Under the pieces are notes generated by a model. That model saw only the letters and a program-made list of their open reading frames with translations, was not told where the DNA came from and did not search any database. A DNA stretch of 57,818 bases. Source: a virus. Taxonomy: Duplodnaviria > Caudoviricetes. Position 1 is the stretch's first letter. Every line of letters begins with the position of its first letter. The translations under genes and the position numbers were made by a program. This document shows, piece after piece, positions 27,192 through 54,606 of this stretch. Location: the IMG/VR virus record IMGVR_UViG_3300032893_000051, positions 1 to 57,818 of that record; one strand, written 5' to 3'.

Positions 27192-28705
27192 TTGTAAAAC
27201 GTCATGTTGACGCTCCCGGTGGTGATGTTCGCGGTCTTCGCCTGGAACCCTAGGCAGTTGCCGGACGGGATCATGAAGTCCTTACCGCCGCCTCCGGCGC
27301 TGACGATGATCGCGTTGGATGAAGTGGACAGGGCTCCGCACGTGGCGGCGTAGGCAAGGTAATAGTCCGAACCGGAGGAATCGAAGATGTCTATCTCATT
27401 TATCGCGGCGCTGGTGGAGCTGATGATCGTGGTGAACGAGCTCGTCGACAGATTCGCCGAGGAATAGCTTTGAGTGAAAGTCGATAGAACTCCTCTCCCG
27501 CTTCCGGCGTTAGCCGTTACAGCTCCAGAAATCGGCTGCGTCACCCCGCTTCCATCCACCCGCAGGGCGCCAGCGGTCGTCAGGGACAGCGGATTCGTCT
27601 TCGCAGTGACGTACGTGGGCGCGGACGTAGTGACTGCGCCCTGAACAATCGGCCCCGACTGCCCTGAGGTCGTGCTCCCCTGCGCTAGTAGAATCCCGTT
27701 CACGCTCGTGTCCAGCGCCAGCGCCGACGTGTTGAGGTTCGTTCCAGCATTTGCCGTGACCGTCCATGATCCCCCCTGATTGGCAGTCACGGTCCCGGAG
27801 ACAACCCACGGGGAAGTCGACTGCGTCACTCCTATTGTCGATGGAAAATTTGAGACAGCTACGGAGTCGGTGCCGCTATTCAGGGTCCACGTGCGGCCCG
27901 TCGTCCATGCTCCCGATTGAACCGCAGCCACTGAATCCGTCGCATTGCTCAGAGTCCACGTCCTGCCCGTCGTCCACGAACCCCCCTGGAATGAGGTAAT
28001 TTGGTCCGATGTAGTCAGGGCACGGATTTGCGTCGGGTCCACATAGCTCGACCCATTGGAGATCTGCACCGCTAGTGGGTTCGTCGAGGATGGGGCCGAT
28101 CCCAAGACTTGGGTAATGTTTATCGATTGCGTGGCAGGAAAGTTGGATACCAAAGCAGAGACAGAATCCGAGCCACTTGAGAGAGTCCATGTTCTCCCCG
28201 TGCTTCCCGAGATTGGTTGAGTCGTCGTTCCGGTCGGGTCGATCCGGAGCGGATTCGAAGGAGTACCTAGTAATACTGTACCATCGGTCAACTCAACGGG
28301 CCATCCGTTGGCGAGCGTGTTCGGCGTTCCCTGATTGGCTGTGAAGGCCCCAGGGAAGGACGACACAGCCACCAGCAGGTTTCCGGAGCCGTCCAGACTC
28401 AGGCCGGTCAGAGTGCCAGATTGATTCCCTGCGATGTAGGTTCCGCTGTTCGGCACGGCGCTTCCGGTTGGTCCAACGCTGGCGTTGCTGCCACTACCAC
28501 CACCGGTCGTAATGAGCTCGCCGCTCGCGTCCACGGCCACGGGGAGGAAGGTGTCTCCGTACAGCCCCATCATCGGGTAGCCAAGGCTCTGGAGTAATTT
28601 CCCATCCCCGGGATCGATGCCTATCTGCCCCTGGTCCCCGCGGTAGACAGTGTAGGACCCAAAACACAGAGCCGGGAAAAGTAACGCGAGAATGATTCGC
28701 TTCAT
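27188..28705 (-). CDS. Ser/Thr/Gly-rich fibre-like repeat protein with signal peptide
   Basis: TGRTWTL..xDSV repeats; NPL and TQPISG motifs; MKRIILALLFPALCFG. Confidence 0.65.
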   Translation of the reverse strand: MKRIILALLFPALCFGSYTVYRGDQGQIGIDPGDGKLLQSLGYPMMGLYGDTFLPVAVDASGELITTGGGSGSNASVGPTGSAVPNSGTYIAGNQSGTLTGLSLDGSGNLLVAVSSFPGAFTANQGTPNTLANGWPVELTDGTVLLGTPSNPLRIDPTGTTTQPISGSTGRTWTLSSGSDSVSALVSNFPATQSINITQVLGSAPSSTNPLAVQISNGSSYVDPTQIRALTTSDQITSFQGGSWTTGRTWTLSNATDSVAAVQSGAWTTGRTWTLNSGTDSVAVSNFPSTIGVTQSTSPWVVSGTVTANQGGSWTVTANAGTNLNTSALALDTSVNGILLAQGSTTSGQSGPIVQGAVTTSAPTYVTAKTNPLSLTTAGALRVDGSGVTQPISGAVTANAGSGRGVLSTFTQSYSSANLSTSSFTTIISSTSAAINEIDIFDSSGSDYYLAYAATCGALSTSSNAIIVSAGGGGKDFMIPSGNCLGFQAKTANITTGSVNMTFYK

Positions 28706-30075
28706 CGTATCCACTTACTCGCTCCAGTGAGGCTGACGGGCTTCCAGTTAGTGGGCATTCCGGTTGACAGCTCGGAGATTGCCTGGGTCGATGCGTCCAC
28801 CTGATCGTCGTTCTTCCCGTTTGGAAATTCTGCCCATTCCTGTACGTAGTCTCCTATCCATGGTGCCAGGGATGGATCCGGAATCCAAACGTTTCCTGAC
28901 TCTATCTGCGGGGATACAGCCTGGGCGCGGAGTTCCTTTGACCCTTTGGGGCGTATGGGGACAATGCCGGCGATTTCGCGTTTGAGGGTGTCGATCAGGG
29001 CCGCGCCGTTTGCCGCTTCCTCCACGCACTTCTTACCGGCGTTCGGGTATCTGGCAGACAAAGTACGAAAGGCGCCTATGGTGTCCGTGAAAGAAAGACG
29101 CGCGCGTATCTGGTCGATCAGGTACTTATCGGCGCCAACCTTCCCCCACACCTGCCCCACGACGTAGTCGGTCGATGCGCCTTCCTTGAAGGTAAGGTCC
29201 CACGACGAAATCATCAGGTCCATTTGCGGGAGAGTCTTGTAGTACTTCCACCAGTGCCGCTTGACGATATTCCCTTCCTGCGGGCTCGGGCGTTGCTGGT
29301 AGAGAGCCTCGAAGTCCTGGCTTCCGATCGTCTTCTTGGTTTGCAGAAGAGTGTCGATGTCGAATCGCTCTGGCCACAGAGCCTTTCCCTCTTCGTCGAT
29401 CGCGGGCATCGAGAGGATTTCCCAGTCGTTCCCTTGCGTGTCGATCAAGTGCGCCGGCAGATCCTTGTCGGACCAGCGAGTTTGAATCAGCACGATCTTT
29501 CCGCCTGGCGCGAGTCGCGTGTAGAGCACAGAGCCGAACCAGTCTTTTATTTCCTTCAGAATCGGCTCGGAGTTCGCTTCCTGACGGTTCTTATGTATAT
29601 CGTCGATAATAATCAGATTCGCTCCGCGGGACGTAAGCGGACCTTTCGCTCCGACTGCGTAGTACGCGCCGCCTTGCTTGGTGTTGAATCGGTGAGCGGC
29701 GAGCGACTCGGGATTTAATTCTAGCTCTGGGAAGATCGCTTTGTAGTCCGGCGTGGTCATCAGCGCGCGGGTTTTCCGTCCAAAATCGGATGCTACTTCC
29801 TGCGAATACGTCGTGGATATCACTTCGTGGCTCGGGTGCCGGCCCATGTACCACGAGGGAAGTAGGGCATTCACCATTCTGGACTTCCCGTGCCGAGGAG
29901 GCGCGTAGATCATCAGCCGCATAATATCCCCGCGTTCTAGCGCCTCGATTCTGCGGACCATGCGGACGATATGGTTGGGAGTCTGGTAGTCGTCGTCCAT
30001 AACAGCAGCGTAGGAAAGTAAATCGTTCCGCGCCCATTGCTGTACGGCTATTTGTATTTCACTACGATGCTGCAT
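28702..30075 (-). CDS. terL: Terminase large subunit
   Basis: Walker A PPRHGKS, Walker B IIIDD, QTRW, ALYQQRP, SWD and NDDQVDA nuclease motif. Confidence 0.95.
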   Translation of the reverse strand: MQHRSEIQIAVQQWARNDLLSYAAVMDDDYQTPNHIVRMVRRIEALERGDIMRLMIYAPPRHGKSRMVNALLPSWYMGRHPSHEVISTTYSQEVASDFGRKTRALMTTPDYKAIFPELELNPESLAAHRFNTKQGGAYYAVGAKGPLTSRGANLIIIDDIHKNRQEANSEPILKEIKDWFGSVLYTRLAPGGKIVLIQTRWSDKDLPAHLIDTQGNDWEILSMPAIDEEGKALWPERFDIDTLLQTKKTIGSQDFEALYQQRPSPQEGNIVKRHWWKYYKTLPQMDLMISSWDLTFKEGASTDYVVGQVWGKVGADKYLIDQIRARLSFTDTIGAFRTLSARYPNAGKKCVEEAANGAALIDTLKREIAGIVPIRPKGSKELRAQAVSPQIESGNVWIPDPSLAPWIGDYVQEWAEFPNGKNDDQVDASTQAISELSTGMPTNWKPVSLTGASKWIR

Positions 30076-50163: not shown

Positions 50164-50369
50164 AAAGAGGACGCCCAATAACCGGCTGTGCGCGCGTGAG
50201 ACTAGATGTACGTGTGGACTCCGATATCCGAGAAAAAATTGCCGGCCTCGCCGCGAGTCTGGGATTGGACGTATCGAACTGCGTGCGAATGCTCCTGGCC
50301 ACCCACCCTACACTCTCCGGCGCTCCCGCTCCATCTTCTCCTTCCGGCAGCGAGCGAGCTCCTCGGTAG
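50160..50369 (+). CDS. Ribbon-helix-helix DNA-binding protein (RelB/CopG-like)
   Basis: RLDVRVDSDIREKIAGLAASLGLDVSNCVRMLL. Confidence 0.7.
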   Translation: MKRGRPITGCARVRLDVRVDSDIREKIAGLAASLGLDVSNCVRMLLATHPTLSGAPAPSSPSGSERAPR

Positions 50370-51159
50370 GCGAGCCGCACTTTTGCATCGCACGCAGAGC
50401 GTAGTAGACGATCGAGTATCGGTATCCGTTCTTATTCATAGGCTTCACCGGAGTTACTCCGTGGATGAAGCTTTGTCCGTCGAATAAAAAGTACGTGTGA
50501 TCGTCCAGGAGCCACTTGGCGTTGAACTCCGGAATGCTGAGATTTCCACCCTCAACCAGGTTCTTAAAAACAGCCATGCAACTCATCACTCCGTGCAGGT
50601 TTCCACGATCGAGGTGATATTTCAGGGGATTGTTTTTATTGACGATACCTGAGGTAAATCTGGTGCCGGGAATGATCCATTCAGACCGAACTTTTCGAAG
50701 CGCCGCCCAGTGCGCTGCGGCTGTTTCAGGAGCCCACTTTTCGTAGTAGTGATCTAGCACCTGCCCGAACGCACAAATTTCTTCGTGCACTGCCGGCTGC
50801 TCCTCACAGCAGCTAGAAACTCCGCAGAAGTTCGCCGAGGGATTATACGGAACGCGCGGACGAAATCCAAAGGTCCTGCTTTCTCCTAGCTGCCTGGCTC
50901 GCGCTGCCTGACTCATTTTTCGATCACCTACGCGATCCATATCCGAACTGCGAACCTCCTGGTTGTAGTTGAGGTTTTGAACTGCGCGCAGAACTGAATA
51001 GAAATATGAAAGGAACCGTCCGTAGATGATCACCGGCTTTCCGTCGAGGCAATACACTCCCGGTTCCGAGTAAACTATTTCTGTATCTGACTCAGCTGGA
51101 GACTTCTTAAGCCACTCCTTGGGAGTTATTTCTCGTCGGACTAGATCAATTCTTTGCAT
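50308..51159 (-). CDS. TET/JBP-family 2-oxoglutarate Fe(II) dioxygenase
   Basis: FTSGIVNKN, HLD (HxD), GGNL.IPE, HGVTP and RYSIVYY motifs. Confidence 0.88.
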   Translation of the reverse strand: MQRIDLVRREITPKEWLKKSPAESDTEIVYSEPGVYCLDGKPVIIYGRFLSYFYSVLRAVQNLNYNQEVRSSDMDRVGDRKMSQAARARQLGESRTFGFRPRVPYNPSANFCGVSSCCEEQPAVHEEICAFGQVLDHYYEKWAPETAAAHWAALRKVRSEWIIPGTRFTSGIVNKNNPLKYHLDRGNLHGVMSCMAVFKNLVEGGNLSIPEFNAKWLLDDHTYFLFDGQSFIHGVTPVKPMNKNGYRYSIVYYALRAMQKCGSPTEELARCRKEKMERERRRV

Positions 51160-51811
51160 TCAGCTTTTTCCAAATCGCCTGGGAGTAATCCTCTACCTCG
51201 TATTTCTTCAGCAGCTCGTCGAGGATGGCTATTACCTTTTCGTACTGTTCCTTGGGATAATAGAGGACAATCTGCTTCACGGCGGCGTTCTTGTATGCCT
51301 CGAAGGAAACATTTTCCTTGGCTTCCCCGTCCTTCTTTTCTGGCTCGGGCGGCAGAAGAGCTAGCCTAATTTCGGGCATGTTGATCTCCGGAAAGTTGAA
51401 ACGATCCAGAGCATCCACTTTTAGTTTCGCTCGTTTCATAAAATCCAGGAGTCCGTCGTTGGTCATCGTCCCGTACTGGGAGGTCCCCTGGGCAACGCGC
51501 TCCAGAGCTTCCTCTTCATTTGCAGCTTCCACTGGTGTGCAGAGAAGTTTCGGGATGCCGATTCCTTCCTCCCGAAGTCGCTTCAGCATTTTCCCCCGCT
51601 GATGTCCGTCGCAGAAATACCACTTCTTGGACTTTGGGTGCTGCCAAACATGCGGGCTGAAGGCGAAGCCGGTCTCCATCACCTCTTTTTTCATTCTCTG
51701 GTAGTTTTCTTCGGTGAGTATTTTTAGCTTTCCCTGGAGATCACTAATCTCATCGACATCGAGAAGGACTTGTTTTCCATAGGCCAATCGGACTTCGGTT
51801 TGCTTTTTCAT
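51146..51811 (-). CDS. ParB/Srx-like N-terminal domain protein
   Basis: GF..P..W...DGHQR motif; coupled to the TET/JBP gene. Confidence 0.75.
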   Translation of the reverse strand: MKKQTEVRLAYGKQVLLDVDEISDLQGKLKILTEENYQRMKKEVMETGFAFSPHVWQHPKSKKWYFCDGHQRGKMLKRLREEGIGIPKLLCTPVEAANEEEALERVAQGTSQYGTMTNDGLLDFMKRAKLKVDALDRFNFPEINMPEIRLALLPPEPEKKDGEAKENVSFEAYKNAAVKQIVLYYPKEQYEKVIAILDELLKKYEVEDYSQAIWKKLNAKN

Positions 51812-51925
51812 GGTGGCAGAATACCCGAGCCTGACGGGAATTCAAGGCAAGGAAAAATCTAGACAAACATCTAGACTCGGACTAGACATGAGGCGCTGCG
51901 GCGATGAAAAATGGAGGGACTGCCA

Positions 51926-52177
51926 ATGCTAGATCCTATCTGCGAATTGGTGGGACACCAGGTGTCCAAACGTCTCCACTGGACCGGCAACTATAAAACG
52001 AACGGCCAGTGGTGGTCCATAAACGAGCGCCGATGCAAAAGATGCCGCCAGGCGATCGACAGGAGGAAAATACTCGGCCGATTCACGAACGCGACTCAGG
52101 AGCAAATTAGCGATGCGATGGAAGAGAGCGACGAAAAATCCAGGCGTTTAGGCGAAGACCACTTCGAACATATCTAG
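51926..52177 (+). CDS. Small Zn-binding protein (DUF1660-like)
   Basis: ICELVGH...CKRC; GGAGG RBS. Confidence 0.6.
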   Translation: MLDPICELVGHQVSKRLHWTGNYKTNGQWWSINERRCKRCRQAIDRRKILGRFTNATQEQISDAMEESDEKSRRLGEDHFEHI

Positions 52178-52186
52178 AAAAAAACC

Positions 52187-52215
52187 TAGACTTATTTACC
52201 ACACTCCACTATAAC
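52187..52215 (+). promoter_or_regulatory. sigma70-like promoter for the repeat array and RAMP operon
   Basis: TAGACT-N17-TATAAC immediately before the array. Confidence 0.65.
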
Positions 52216-52702
52216 GCAGCTCGACATGACGTGGACTGTAGGTAAGCGCAACGGCCCGAAGCGACATGGCAGCATCGGATGGTCTGGTAGTCGAGTGACA
52301 TAGAACGACCTAAAGAGGTTAGAAGTGGAAGGGCAGTAGGGGTAACGGAGTAAAGGGGAAGGAATGGGCATCGAGTGACCAGGCAGTAGGGGAGGGTAAA
52401 AGAACTGCACTGATAAGGTACTGACAAGAATTGGCCTGATAAGAATTGTTCTGGCAGGAAAGACTCGCAAAGTAGCGTAACGGAGTGATTGAAACTGGTT
52501 AGCATTGAAGCGAAGCGGTTTGTTTCGGCAGAAGGGGAGCGGCTAAAAGTGAATTGAAGTGGACTGTCTCGGCAGACTCGGATCGGATCGGCGAGAACAG
52601 AACCGAAGCGGACTAAACAGGATGGAAATGGAAGGATAGGGCAGTGACGGATAGGCGTGAAATGGACTGATGGAATGGAAGGGAATGGAATGCAAAAGGC
52701 AA
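52215..52702 (+). ncRNA. Non-coding array of 8 GGCAG-delimited units made of 5-nt periodic G-N-N-N-N steps (candidate guide-RNA array)
   Basis: GGCAG at 52268, 52332, 52382, 52453, 52527, 52571 and 52640 (CGCAG at 52215, GGCAA at 52698); 72 of 82 pentamers start with G in a manual parse. Confidence 0.8.
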
Positions 52703-52725
52703 CCTGTAAGGAATTCTTACAAGGT
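52702..52725 (+). other. Stem-loop closing the array
   Basis: ACC-TGTAAG-gaatt-CTTACA-A-GGT, just before the GAGGAG RBS of 52739. Confidence 0.55.
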
Positions 52726-52738
52726 CGAGGAGTGAAGT

Positions 52739-53221
52739 GTGACCAAGAATTATACCGCGCTACCTGGTAGCGCTTTTTCCGACGACGATGCGCAGATAAT
52801 TGGTAGGTTCTTAGATAGGAAATTTCCTGACGGGCAGTTCACCGCGAAGGATGTCCTCGAGGCAGCTCGACCGCGATCCAGCGAGATTCATCGATTTGTT
52901 TTTTCGACGTCACCTCAGGACGCGGCGGAACGCTACTATTTGCTTCGTGCACGCAAACTAATTTCATGCTTGGTGGTCCACGTAGACGATGTACCCACGA
53001 AGAAGTACGTCTCCAGAGTTTTCGTCGAATCGTCAGCCAAAAAAATGTTCATGGATGTAGATCGCGCGCGAAGATCCGAGGATATCTGGAGTCAAGTGAT
53101 GGACCAGGCGATGCGCGACGCAATCAGGTTTCGAGACAGGTACAGTCGGCTCAAAAAAATTGGGCCGATTATTAAGGCAATAAACCGGGTTGAGGCGAAA
53201 TTGAAGGAGAAAAGCAGATGA
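52739..53221 (+). CDS. Helical partner protein of the RAMP-like gene
   Basis: TAKDVLEAAR..S.IH.F...AAERY.L.RARKLI motif; between array and RAMP gene; ATGA-coupled to it. Confidence 0.75.
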   Translation: MTKNYTALPGSAFSDDDAQIIGRFLDRKFPDGQFTAKDVLEAARPRSSEIHRFVFSTSPQDAAERYYLLRARKLISCLVVHVDDVPTKKYVSRVFVESSAKKMFMDVDRARRSEDIWSQVMDQAMRDAIRFRDRYSRLKKIGPIIKAINRVEAKLKEKSR

Positions 53222-53841
53222 AGAAAGTGGAAAATGCCAAAACAAAAAAGGAAGTGGTGAGGATTCCACCAATAGAGCTGAAGACCGCGCGGATCACACT
53301 GGTGGGAGTAACCCCACTTCTGGTACATCGGAAGTCCGAGAAGATGGAGAAGTACCTCGCCGAGCGCGATCAGAACGCCCCGAAGAATAAGCCAGCGCCG
53401 AGAAGTCCACACCAGGAATATCTGGACTCTATGTATAAGATTCCAGGAAAGAAGAATGTCTATGGAATTCCTGCAAGCGGAGTGAAGCTCTGTGCAGTTT
53501 CAGCGTGCCGATTTATCGGCGGCATTAAAATGACCACTGCTTTAGGCGCCTTCCACGTCGTGGGAGACATCGGTGGACTAATCCCTATCGAGGGAGGAAA
53601 GCCGACCATGGACGAAAGAATCGTACAGATAGGTAAGTTCGGTAGCAAAACTCCTCAACTACGGTACAGAGGACGCTGGGACAAGTGGCACCTGAATGTG
53701 ACCATTCGATATAACAGCGCGGTTATTAGTCCGGAACAATTAGTTCACCTCTATGAAAATGCAGGATTTGGCGTCGGACTCTGCGAGCATCGCCCAGAGA
53801 AAAAAGGGAATCTAGGAATGTTCTCTGTCAAGCGAGGCTAG
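53218..53841 (+). CDS. Stand-alone Cas7/RAMP-like RNA-binding protein
   Basis: ITLVGVTPLLVH (first strand), YGIPASGVK (IPxSxxK) and C-terminal G-rich loop AGFGVGLCEHRPEKKGNLGMFSV. Confidence 0.75.
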   Translation: MKKVENAKTKKEVVRIPPIELKTARITLVGVTPLLVHRKSEKMEKYLAERDQNAPKNKPAPRSPHQEYLDSMYKIPGKKNVYGIPASGVKLCAVSACRFIGGIKMTTALGAFHVVGDIGGLIPIEGGKPTMDERIVQIGKFGSKTPQLRYRGRWDKWHLNVTIRYNSAVISPEQLVHLYENAGFGVGLCEHRPEKKGNLGMFSVKRG

Positions 53842-53916
53842 GCATCAGAGGATCGGAAGGGGTATTTATCGGCACCAATTTGCCAGAGTTGTAAGACCCA
53901 GGTATAGAAGAAAGTC

Positions 53917-54135
53917 ATGAAAAACATCGAGACAATATCTCTTCCGACCAAGCGTAAGAAGAAGGGCGTGCAATGCAATCTGGACCAGGAGCTGCTTTCG
54001 GCGGCTCGGGTAGAAATGCGGAAGGAGAAAATCTCCATCACCGCGTGTCTGGAGTGGGGGCTGAAGGTTTACCTGCTCAGGTGCAACCCGCGGAAGGCGA
54101 AGGAAATAGGGATTCGTCTAGAGGCTGGAGGATAA
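53917..54135 (+). CDS. Ribbon-helix-helix DNA-binding protein
   Basis: VQCNLDQELLSAAR...ISITACLEWGLKVYL. Confidence 0.6.
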   Translation: MKNIETISLPTKRKKKGVQCNLDQELLSAARVEMRKEKISITACLEWGLKVYLLRCNPRKAKEIGIRLEAGG

Positions 54136-54333
54136 GATATTTGGAGGTAAAAAGTGGACATAGAAAAACTAACAATTGGTGAAGCGAGAGAGTTAAGCGC
54201 GATGCTGGACGTGCGCGGAAAACGAAAAAAGAATTAATGGGATACCCCATAGAGTGGACCGCATTAGATGCTTGGGCAATGCAGTGGTTCCGCTCCAAGC
54301 GAGGGAAGCATTCAAAAGATTGATAGGGCTAAA

Positions 54334-54606
54334 ATGATTTCCAAGTCTGAAATGAAGCGCGTGGCGATGCAGAACCCCGAGCGAATGGCGGAGGAATATT
54401 GGAAGCTGAAAAAAGAGAATGAGAGGTTGAGGGAGGCTTTGAGTTTTTACGCCAAAGCGAAGATTCTCTTCGCTTCCTTTGACGGAGAAATGCCTTTAGC
54501 GAAAGATGCTGCTAAGGGACTAGCTTTCTCGGGCTTTGAAACAACCGAAACCCACGTGAAGGACGACGGAGCAATTGCCCGCGCCGCGCTGGAGGACGAG
54601 AAGTGA
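54334..54606 (+). CDS. Coiled-coil hypothetical protein
   Basis: MISKSEMKR...ENERLREALSFYA...IARAAL, a common phage pattern. Confidence 0.65.
   Translation: MISKSEMKRVAMQNPERMAEEYWKLKKENERLREALSFYAKAKILFASFDGEMPLAKDAAKGLAFSGFETTETHVKDDGAIARAALEDEK

What the first reader, a model, noticed from the sequence alone, without database searches (positions are those of the whole stretch)
52215..52702. Hidden 5-nt periodic code in the array
Manual parse (GGCAG plus ~4 nt, then pentamers). U2: ggatg gtctg gtagt cgagt gacat agaac gacct aaaga ggtta gaagt ggaag. U5: gactc gcaaa gtagc gtaac ggagt gattg aaact ggtta gcatt gaagc gaagc ggttt gtttc. U6: ggagc ggcta aaagt gaatt gaagt ggact gtctc. U7: ggatc ggatc ggcga gaaca gaacc gaagc ggact aaaca ggatg gaaat ggaag gatag. 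Unit lengths are 53, 64, 50, 71, 74, 44, 69 and 58; four are exactly 9+5n and the rest need 1-2 single-base indels. 72 of 82 pentamers start with G, position 2 is mostly a purine, position 3 is most often A, and positions 4-5 vary freely. Each unit has a different dinucleotide string (U5: tc aa gc ac gt tg ct ta tt gc gc tt tc), which looks like information rather than microsatellite slippage. Standard repeat and CRISPR finders would probably miss it.
Basis: seen in the sequence. Interest (0 to 1): 0.9.

Follow-up and report, generated by a model that had tools for sequence, protein, structure and literature searches.

The report
VIPR guide-RNA array in a phage

Summary
Window 52219-52692 (+) is a 474-nt non-coding run of pentamers. 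Position 1 is G in 73 of 83, position 3 is never G, and positions 4-5 are near-random. Period-5 power exceeds dinucleotide shuffles (0-1 of 500). A pentamer HMM calls this one place in the whole 57.8-kb phage, on one strand, and calls nothing in 100 shuffles.

The gene two ORFs downstream (53218-53841) folds as a Cas7-like RAMP. Its profile's only PDB sequence hit is 'SUSP1 Vipr protein'. The same trio of RAMP, 160-aa partner and pentamer array recurs in 32 of 36 related viral loci, always on the RAMP's strand.

This is a VIPR system (bioRxiv 10.64898/2026.04.26.720920): Vipr protein, vap gene and vrRNAs of GGY/NN pentamers whose NN dinucleotides specify a DNA target. So the 'information' reading is supported, but the system is already published.

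This copy is tail-less and 'staggered', with GGCA|G junctions, and its scaffold is A-rich at position 3 rather than GGY. I found no target and no RNA data. Verdict: new member of a known kind.

The parts
52219..52692 (+). vrRNA array: about 96 pentamer-register units of form G-R/G-H-N-N, tail-less ('staggered') architecture
   Evidence: It is the only call of the cyclic pentamer HMM in the window, on either strand. As RNA it is no more structured than shuffles (z=+1.28; 92 of 100 shuffles fold at least as well).
52219..52267 (+). leader or first partial unit (about 10 pentamers) before the first GGCA junction
   Evidence: Parse. Whether it is a real guide is not known.
52332..52381 (+). unit: GGCA + 9 pentamers with 1 inserted base
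52382..52452 (+). unit: GGCA + 13 pentamers with 2 inserted bases
52640..52692 (+). last unit: GGCA + about 9 pentamers with a 3-nt indel, ending in GGAAT-type repeats
   Evidence: TRF row 52670-52692.
52187..52215 (+). possible array promoter (TAGACT, 17 nt, TATAAC) just before the array start
   Evidence: Read by eye. The scan did NOT report it, because its rule needs T at the last position of the second hexamer. This is inference only.
52703..52724 (.). 8-bp hairpin right after the array, before the vap ribosome-binding site
   Evidence: Terminator-like row on the - strand. Its role as a cap or terminator is not tested.
52739..53221 (+). vap-like accessory gene (160 aa, phrog_15946)
   Evidence: PHROG hit. 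Homologues lie next to the RAMP gene in 28 of 36 related loci. AF2 model has pLDDT 92.5. It is not homologous to SUSP1 vap1 (hhalign probability 0.08%).
53218..53841 (+). vipr gene (207 aa, Cas7-like minimal RAMP, phrog_4652)
   Evidence: AF2 model has pLDDT 86.1. Foldseek gives 46 PDB matches at E<=1e-3, with Csm3, type VII Cas7, Cmr4 and Cas7-11 on top. hhalign against SUSP1 Vipr gives probability 96.5%, E=1e-9. The only PDB sequence hit of the family profile is 36pp_D 'SUSP1 Vipr protein', E=2.3e-7.

Best explanation
The region is the guide-RNA (vrRNA) array of a phage-encoded VIPR system. It belongs with the vap-like gene (52739-53221) and the vipr gene (53218-53841) downstream.

By homology with the characterised SUSP1 and P. 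fulva systems, the mechanism would be as follows. The array is transcribed on the + strand. It is cut or measured into guides of about 8-14 pentamers at the GGCA|G junctions. One Vipr protomer binds each pentamer and sequesters the conserved first three bases. Positions 4-5 of every pentamer are then exposed to pair with double-stranded DNA that reads NN-x-NN-x..., with one skipped base per repeat. The resulting filament silences transcription of a competing phage, prophage or satellite.

Shown here: the periodic array, its uniqueness in the genome, its strand, the Vipr homology, the conserved three-part synteny, and unit-wise turnover between close relatives.

Inferred from the papers only: transcription, processing at the junctions, protein binding in 5-nt register, the 1-nt-skip pairing rule, and silencing.
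For: 1. The period-5 signal is above shuffles. The HMM makes a single call in 57.8 kb on both strands, and 0 of 100 shuffles are called.

2. The scaffold is conserved and the NN positions are free. Position 1 is G in 73 of 83 pentamers, position 3 is G in 0 of 83, and positions 4-5 have 1.95 and 1.94 bits.

3. The neighbouring 207-aa protein is a Cas7-like RAMP. It is homologous to the experimentally studied SUSP1 Vipr. The G-loop motif G-x-x-[D/E]-aromatic-R-P is shared by all 35 locus proteins found, by the window protein and by SUSP1. In SUSP1 these residues are D177, W178 and R179, which contact G1, G2 and Y3 (10.64898/2026.04.26.720927, Results part 1).

4. In 32 of 36 related viral loci a pentamer array of at least 100 nt lies next to the vipr/vap genes on the vipr strand. 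None of the 36 has one on the other strand. The order of the three parts varies: array-vap-vipr here, and elsewhere vap-vipr-array, vipr-vap-array and vipr-array-vap. That argues for functional rather than positional linkage.

5. Positive control: the same HMM picks out the SUSP1 intergenic vrRNA regions (29170-29230, 27890-27968, 27747-27820, - strand) and nothing else in the first 45 kb of SUSP1 (sequences).

6. Unit sizes fit. In 22 arrays (21 of the related loci plus the window), 121 of 151 junction-to-junction intervals are 8-14 pentamers. The paper gives 9-16 repeats per vrRNA.

7. L022 and L023 have vipr 638/648 and vap 505/510 nt identical, but their arrays are only 315/451 identical. 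Whole units are swapped in order or replaced, while the first and last units are kept.

8. None of the 7 window units tested (at least 8 dinucleotides each) matches the window or the fetched loci at 80% NN or better. The best is 65-75%, equal to the shuffled-guide null. The paper also reports no self-targeting.
Against: - There is no expression evidence. No RNA run holds the region.
- No target was found for any unit.
- The scaffold is not the canonical GGY. Position 2 is G in only 34 of 83 pentamers, and position 3 is a purine (A) in 56 of 83. In SUSP1 the Y3 pocket excludes purines. GGY>GGA is one of the GGY substitutions tested in the fig. S12 legend, and the main text says perturbing the GGY motifs abolished silencing.
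- No conserved 3' tail separates the units, unlike type II vrRNAs.
- The window's Vap lacks the F-E-W-D-D motif that most of its 22 aligned relatives keep, and it is unrelated to vap1.
- The 'staggered' architecture that this array resembles was not among those the paper says it confirmed by sRNA-seq.
Confidence: 0.9

Rival explanations
1. It is a decayed or inactive VIPR array. The locus descends from a VIPR system, but this copy no longer makes working guides.
For: Position 2 is G in only 34 of 83 pentamers, against 67-85% in the closest relatives L003-L010. Five units carry indels. The window's Vap has lost the F-E-W-D-D motif. No target was found.
Against: Position 1 (G in 73 of 83) and position 3 (G in 0 of 83) are still strongly constrained. 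All 7 GGCAG junctions are intact. The vipr ORF is full length, with the invariant G-loop residues. [quoted passage not shown] My target search could only find exact seeds.
Confidence: 0.12
2. It is a DNA-level protein-binding site acting as double-stranded DNA, such as iterons of a replication origin, a packaging site or a partition site. The nearby ParB-like protein or the replication/recombination module might read it.
For: The region lies in the early/recombination part of the genome, beside a ParB-like gene. In L010 a terminase large subunit follows the array.
Against: - The array is always G-rich on the vipr coding strand: 32 of 36 loci on +, 0 of 36 on -.
- Its neighbours other than vipr/vap change from locus to locus: ERF, DUF932, portal, TerL, methylase, RNR.
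- The variable positions are near-random instead of being conserved binding sites.
- Homologous SUSP1 regions are shown to be RNAs bound by Vipr.
Confidence: 0.03
3. It is a translated region, either a small protein or proteins on the - strand (ORFs 52192-52470, 52209-52505, 52543-52695) or part of the + strand operon.
For: ORFs of 92, 98 and 50 aa are open on the - strand across the array.
Against: There is no period-3 signal (z=0.15). There is no Pfam hit for 4 of 4 overlapping ORFs at E<=0.1. A purine-rich + strand makes the - strand poor in stop codons by composition alone. Conservation across loci is in 5-nt register, not 3-nt register.
Confidence: 0.01
4. It is a simple satellite, slippage product or G-quadruplex-forming tract with no coded content.
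For: The last 23 nt are a true (ATGGA) microsatellite. GG every 5 nt could form two-layer quadruplexes (my inference, not tested).
Against: Units differ in sequence, with near-maximal entropy at positions 4-5. Only fragmentary direct repeats exist. Close relatives exchange whole units rather than expanding one motif. In the window, only 34 of 83 pentamers have G at position 2, so GG runs are sparse.
Confidence: 0.02

Closest known systems
VIPR systems, type II as in Escherichia phage SUSP1 and the Pseudomonas fulva prophage (bioRxiv 10.64898/2026.04.26.720920 and 10.64898/2026.04.26.720927)
   Same: Both have a small RAMP protein homologous to SUSP1 Vipr and are phage-borne. Both have a two-gene operon plus intergenic pentamer-repeat RNA genes on the same strand. 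Both have a conserved trinucleotide with two free bases. Guide lengths of 8-14 repeats compare with 9-16 in the paper.
   Different: - SUSP1 vrRNAs are separate genes of GGT/NN repeats, each followed by a roughly 40-nt structured tail. Here the units abut with only a GGCA|G junction.
- Position 3 is A in 56 of 83 pentamers here.
- The accessory gene is unrelated to vap1.
- The array lies upstream of vap-vipr.
'Staggered' vrRNA arrays of other VIPR types (fig. S18 legend of 10.64898/2026.04.26.720920; I saw the legend only)
   Same: The legend says individual vrRNAs derive from 1-nt overlapping positions, so the end of one marks the start of the next. Here each junction is GGCAG, whose last G is also the first G of the next pentamer, giving a 4-nt step in a 5-nt register.
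   Different: I could not see the figure or data S4. Whether the published staggered arrays use the same GGCA junction, the same Vipr clade or the same vap is unknown to me. The paper lists sRNA-seq confirmation for the ribozyme and single-vrRNA architectures, not for this one.
Non-canonical VIPR arrays found by a genomic language model (bioRxiv 10.64898/2026.10.21.760802; passages only)
   Same: Period-5 arrays sit beside Vipr-like folds with trinucleotides other than GGY (GAC, CAC, WGT and TGH are named).
   Different: A G-R-A / GGA scaffold is not named in the passages I saw. Those clusters are said to repeat 10 times, whereas units here have 8-14 repeats.
CRISPR class 1 backbones (Cas7/Csm3/Cmr4 on crRNA)
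   Same: The protein has the same fold. One protomer binds per fixed step of RNA, with a thumb that flips bases out.
   Different: The step is 5 nt, not 6. There are no 23-nt-or-longer direct repeats or spacers and no Rfam CRISPR-DR hit. Guide information is interleaved, not contiguous. No other cas genes were seen among the 10 neighbours scanned.

Membership tests
VIPR system | Vipr protein: small (~20 kDa) single-RRM RAMP with G-loop and thumb, homologous to published Vipr | tested here: met
   The protein is 207 aa. Foldseek gives 46 PDB matches at E<=1e-3, led by Csm3, type VII Cas7 and Cmr4. hhalign against SUSP1 Vipr gives probability 96.5%, E=1e-9, over 70 C-terminal columns including the G-loop. 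The profile's only PDB sequence hit is 'SUSP1 Vipr protein', E=2.3e-7. I did not inspect the thumb separately.
VIPR system | vrRNA made of tandem pentanucleotides: conserved trinucleotide (GGY 'or a related consensus') alternating with hypervariable NN | tested here: met
   83 clean pentamers. Position 1 is G in 73 of 83, position 3 is G in 0 of 83, and positions 4-5 have 1.95 and 1.94 bits. Signal is above shuffles. It is met as a related consensus (G-R-H, A-rich at position 3), not as strict GGY: position 3 is Y in only 27 of 83.
VIPR system | 9-16 repeats per vrRNA | tested here: met
   Window units have 12, 9, 13, 14, 8, 13 and about 9 pentamers between GGCA junctions. Two are at or just under the lower bound. 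The boundaries are inferred from sequence, not from RNA ends.
VIPR system | vipr flanked by a vap accessory gene in a minimal operon, without CRISPR array or other cas genes | tested here: met
   The 160-aa partner overlaps the vipr start and is conserved next to vipr in 28 of 36 loci. No Rfam family is found in the window. The 10 neighbouring ORFs show no cas domains. Which of vap1-6 it is could not be tested (the supplements and figures were not seen). It is not vap1.
VIPR system | Mostly viral or proviral location | tested here: met
   The window is a complete 57,818-bp IMG/VR virus record with direct terminal repeats.
VIPR system | vrRNAs are expressed and co-purify with Vipr | not testable with these tools
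   No RNA run holds the region. The runs laid were DNA contigs only.
VIPR system | NN dinucleotides match a natural DNA target under the 1-nt-skip rule (>=80% NN) | tested here: inconclusive
   Only exact seeds of 8-10 dinucleotides could be scanned in the collections. Two seeds gave 0 hits and four gave 7-12 hits, with flank matches at chance (0-4 of 8-10). A mismatch-tolerant search was possible only on 0.7-1.0 Mb of local sequence, where results equalled the null.
VIPR system | No self-targeting at >=80% NN | tested here: met
   The best 1-nt-skip matches of 7 window units in the window plus fetched loci were 65-75% of NN bases. That is no better than order-shuffled guides.
VIPR type II (SUSP1 / P. 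fulva clade) | Each vrRNA ends in a conserved structured 3' tail (~40 nt, pseudoknot) and the operon carries vap1 | tested here: not met
   Units abut with a 4-nt GGCA junction and no tail. The array RNA is not more structured than shuffles. The Vap is unrelated to SUSP1 vap1. SUSP1 is not among the 34 phage records that tblastn finds with the window protein. So this is not type II.
CRISPR array | Direct repeats of roughly 23-50 nt separated by unique spacers of similar length | tested here: not met
   TRF and the repeat finder give no such repeats. The only recurring word is GGCAG. There is no Rfam CRISPR-DR match.

The most novel reading that the evidence does not exclude
The window's clade of Vipr proteins (50-62% identical, in viral loci L003-L010, L034 and L036) reads a purine-containing GGA/NN scaffold that the SUSP1 protein sterically rejects. 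It makes its guides from a tail-less array in which a conserved GGCA|G one-base register slip is the only unit boundary. If so, guide length is set by a processing or measuring mechanism not yet described (no ribozyme, no pseudoknot cap). The unrelated, conserved 160-aa Vap may take part in it.
Probability: 0.3. Interest if true: 0.5.

Novelty: new member of a known kind. Interest (0 to 1): 0.3.

Why it matters
VIPR is a recently described RNA-guided DNA-recognition system with an interleaved code, and it is proposed to be older than CRISPR. This locus adds a complete, uncultivated wetland phage to the family.

With its 36 related loci it documents three things:
- a GGCA|G junction conserved across very divergent Vipr proteins;
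- a sub-clade whose scaffold has A, not a pyrimidine, at position 3;
- cassette-like exchange of whole guides between phages that are 98-99% identical in vipr and vap.

These are useful for anyone studying how tail-less arrays are processed, and how scaffold specificity co-varies with the protein. It also shows that the signal can be seen in raw sequence by eye. It is not a new kind of system.

Tried and rejected
**Known RNA families and tRNAs.** There is no Rfam match in the window at gathering thresholds and no tRNA or tmRNA.

**Close DNA relatives.** blastn of 51100-54000 against 50,697 phage records found no match. Single-protein back-translation scans found 0 relatives for the RAMP and 1 for the ParB-like protein. 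The alignment A1 was needed to find relatives.

**Partner protein homologues.** The search for homologous proteins returned only the window's own protein for the 160-aa partner. I collected homologues from the loci by an iterated HMM search instead.

**Early ideas dropped once the RAMP fold and the papers were found.** These were a TRAP-like ring-protein site, a CsrA sponge, a rut site on the - strand, a G-quadruplex string, and an origin or pac site.

**Vap fold.** Foldseek against the PDB gave no hit at E<=1e-3. The weak rows repeat winged-helix proteins (MukE, RepE, SarA, forkhead). The VIA wide search gave best Z 6.6. Most rows cover only the C-terminal helical hairpin 112-160. The N-terminal domain matches YceH-like and other chains at Z 5.5-5.8, all below the tool's own caution line of 8. 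So 'winged-helix-like DNA binder' remains only a suggestion.

**Host.** The genome-contig scan with A1 gave 4 MAG loci of unrelated taxa at 25-40% identity. No host could be inferred.

**RNA evidence.** No RNA holder is listed. The laid runs were DNA contigs. Run X2 covers only fragments outside the array, and X3 has one 40-nt piece at 52585-52624 with 8 differences. That says nothing about array variation.

**Target search.**
- 7 window units against the window plus loci under skip rules 0-3 gave results equal to shuffled guides.
- 99 clean guides from all arrays against about 1 Mb of local sequence gave 22 of 99 at >=80% NN under skip 1, against 22 of 99 for shuffled guides. The 6 hits at >=90% under skip 3 are most likely the same units in duplicate or unmasked arrays; I did not check this.
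- Six collection scans with exact seeds found nothing above chance (flanks checked).
- These blanks do not bear on whether targets exist.

**G-loop residue and position-3 base.** I looked for covariation between the G-loop aromatic residue and the position-3 base across loci. There is no clean pattern: L036 is A-rich with W, and L037 is C-rich with Y.

**Not done or not seen.**
- VIPR type (I-VII) was not assigned. It needs Fig. 5A, fig. S16-S18 and data S4, and figures are not held and supplements are closed.

**Papers, and what I saw of each.**
- 10.64898/2026.04.26.720920: outline, Results (2 parts), Discussion, Methods parts 1-2 of 4, and found passages including the legends of figs S12 and S17-S22.
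- 10.64898/2026.04.26.720927: outline and abstract, and Results part 1 of 2.
- 10.64898/2026.10.15.759431: outline and abstract, and Methods section 17.
- 10.64898/2026.10.21.760802: found passages only.
- The first two literature searches did not name the system. One search did.
Full report
**What is at the coordinates.** The finding lies in a 561-nt gap (52178-52738) between a small ORF (51911-52177, +) and two overlapping + strand genes (52739-53221 and 53218-53841). The stretch 52215-52702 is 36% G and 32% A, against 27% and 21% for the window. The two most purine-rich 300-nt windows of the whole 57.8-kb sequence lie inside it. The window is a complete IMG/VR virus record with direct terminal repeats.

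**Is the periodicity real.** Fourier power at period 5 stands out from 500 dinucleotide-preserving shuffles:
- All bases: z=4.2, with 1 of 500 shuffles as high.
- G alone: z=5.0, with 0 of 500 as high.
- The other 17 periods tested, including period 3 (z=0.15), do not stand out.

I then trained a cyclic five-state HMM with insert, delete and background states on the window's right end plus 36 related loci.
- Run on the entire window on both strands, it calls one array, 52219-52692 on the + strand.
- It calls nothing in 100 dinucleotide shuffles of the gap.
- The HMM was trained on data that include this region, so the shuffle result is the control that counts.

The parse gives 83 clean pentamers:
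- position 1 is G in 73;
- position 2 is A 34, G 34, T 11, C 4;
- position 3 is A 56, C 18, T 9, G 0;
- positions 4 and 5 have 1.95 and 1.94 bits of entropy.

In register, each GGCAG is a four-base step, GGCA, followed by a G that starts the next pentamer. Ordinary tools see almost nothing here: TRF reports a 23-nt ATGGA run, and the repeat finder reports fragments.

**What the neighbours are.** Pfam is silent on both downstream genes. PHROGs places them in two families of unknown function.
- With 37 homologues from the 5.8-billion-protein set, the 207-aa protein folds with pLDDT 86.
- Foldseek then returns 46 PDB matches at E<=1e-3. Csm3 of type III-A, the Cas7 of type VII, Cmr4 and Cas7-11 are on top. 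So it is a solitary Cas7-like RAMP in a phage.
- Using the alignment to scan viral contigs gave 36 related loci at 24-57% identity.
- In 32 of these 36 the HMM calls an array of at least 100 nt beside the RAMP gene, always on its coding strand. None of the 36 has a call on the opposite strand.
- A homologue of the 160-aa partner lies next to the RAMP gene in 28 of 36 loci.
- The order of the three parts differs among loci, and the other neighbours vary: ERF, DUF932, portal, large terminase, methylase, ribonucleotide reductase. The trio is therefore the conserved unit.

**Identification.** A literature search on Cas7, phage-encoded, RAMP and filament surfaced the VIPR preprints. The discovery paper (10.64898/2026.04.26.720920; Results, Discussion and Methods read) describes:
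- phage-borne two-gene loci (vipr, a minimal RAMP, plus a vap gene);
- intergenic vrRNAs of 9-16 YNNGG repeats;
- a Vipr protein that holds each GGY, while the NN dinucleotides pair with double-stranded DNA with one skipped base per repeat, silencing transcription of competing phages and satellites.

The cryo-EM paper (10.64898/2026.04.26.720927) shows one protomer per repeat and names the G-loop residues that read G1, G2 and Y3.

I tested the link directly.
- I fetched phage SUSP1. Its 195-aa gene between two long intergenic regions aligns to my family profile with probability 96.5%, E=1e-9, across the G-loop.
- The profile's only hit among all PDB sequences is 'SUSP1 Vipr protein' (36pp_D, E=2.3e-7).
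- The G-loop motif is shared by SUSP1, the window protein and all 35 locus proteins found.
- As a positive control, my HMM, trained without SUSP1, marks three places in the first 45 kb of SUSP1. All three are in those two intergenic regions, on the vipr strand, where GGTNN repeats are plain to see.

**How this copy differs.**
- *No tails.* SUSP1 vrRNAs are separate genes, each ending in a structured tail. Here the units abut, separated only by the GGCA|G step. The array as RNA is no more structured than shuffles (z=+1.28).
- *A conserved junction.* The GGCA junction is found in most of the divergent loci. In 22 arrays (21 of the related loci plus the window), 121 of 151 junction-to-junction intervals are 8-14 pentamers. 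[quoted passage not shown] I could not see that figure, and the paper lists experimental confirmation only for other architectures.
- *A different scaffold.* Position 3 is A-rich in the window and in its closest relatives (61-80% A in L003-L010, L034 and L036). More distant loci use C/T. In SUSP1 the pocket excludes purines. GGY>GGA is among the scaffold substitutions tested there, and the text says perturbing GGY abolished silencing. The paper does allow 'a related consensus' and names NNNGG-type repeats.
- *A different Vap.* It is unrelated to SUSP1 vap1. It folds confidently (pLDDT 92.5), but has only weak, winged-helix-flavoured structural matches. The window's copy lacks the F-E-W-D-D motif that most of its relatives keep.

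**Is the variable part information.** L022 and L023 are 638/648 identical in vipr and 505/510 in vap, but only 315/451 in the array. Their first unit and last two units are the same, two units have swapped order, and two are unique to each phage. That is cassette turnover of whole guides, not slippage.

I could not find targets.
- No window unit matches the window or the fetched loci better than order-shuffled guides.
- 99 guides from all arrays do no better than shuffles on about 1 Mb of local sequence.
- The public collections can only be scanned for exact patterns. Six seeds of 8-10 dinucleotides gave either no hit or 7-12 hits whose flanking dinucleotides match at chance.
- No RNA run holds the region.

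**Verdict.** The periodic array is real, is non-coding, and is the vrRNA array of a VIPR system. This locus is a new, uncharacterised member. It is not type II; it is tail-less and staggered, with an A-rich scaffold and a different vap.

Noticed in passing
window 51853-51876 and 52172-52192: TCTAGA-containing repeats (AAAAATCTAGAC x2, and ATCTAGA-N7-CTAGACT) bracket the small Cys-rich ORF 51911-52177 (88 aa, no Pfam or PHROG hit). They sit in the divergent control region. This looks like operator sites around a small regulator.
   Followed up: no
window 50308-51811 (- strand): A Tet_JBP 2OG-Fe dioxygenase (283 aa, Pfam E=2.3e-9) overlaps a weak ParB-like protein (221 aa, PHROG E=0.0018) and is transcribed away from the VIPR locus. 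This suggests DNA base hypermodification in this phage.
   Followed up: no
window 54252-54324: About 45-70 nt at the start of ORF 54268-54606 is shared by many different contigs in three wetland metagenome runs. Unrelated sequence lies on both sides, and one of the contigs is 19.6 kb. This is a short conserved module boundary or mosaic joint.
   Followed up: no
L021 4950-5650: This Vipr-linked array has strong period-5 signal but a T-rich scaffold (GTT/GGT-like pentamers) and GTCAG instead of GGCAG junctions. My GG-trained HMM missed it, so it is a non-canonical vrRNA array.
   Followed up: partly
window 52757-52773: A terminator-like hairpin with a T-run lies on the + strand inside codons 7-12 of the vap ORF. 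The N-terminus of that ORF is conserved in relatives. It may be an attenuator after the array, or chance.
   Followed up: no
L013 1030-2102: A single 332-aa ORF (1104-2102) hits the vap profile and overlaps the Vipr match (1030-1575). This may be a vipr-vap fusion, or a start-codon artefact of my ORF caller.
   Followed up: no
L027, L038, L011: Three of the 36 loci have vipr and vap but no HMM call of at least 100 nt. L011 has only 68 nt just upstream of vipr. I did not check whether they hold non-canonical arrays like L021 or none at all.
   Followed up: no
phage records: tblastn with the window Vipr finds 34 isolate-phage records at 26-32% identity: 27 Mycobacterium, 5 Gordonia, 1 cyanophage and 1 Pseudomonas LESphi2. 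All are annotated 'hypothetical protein', so cultured actinophages probably carry unannotated VIPR loci.
   Followed up: no
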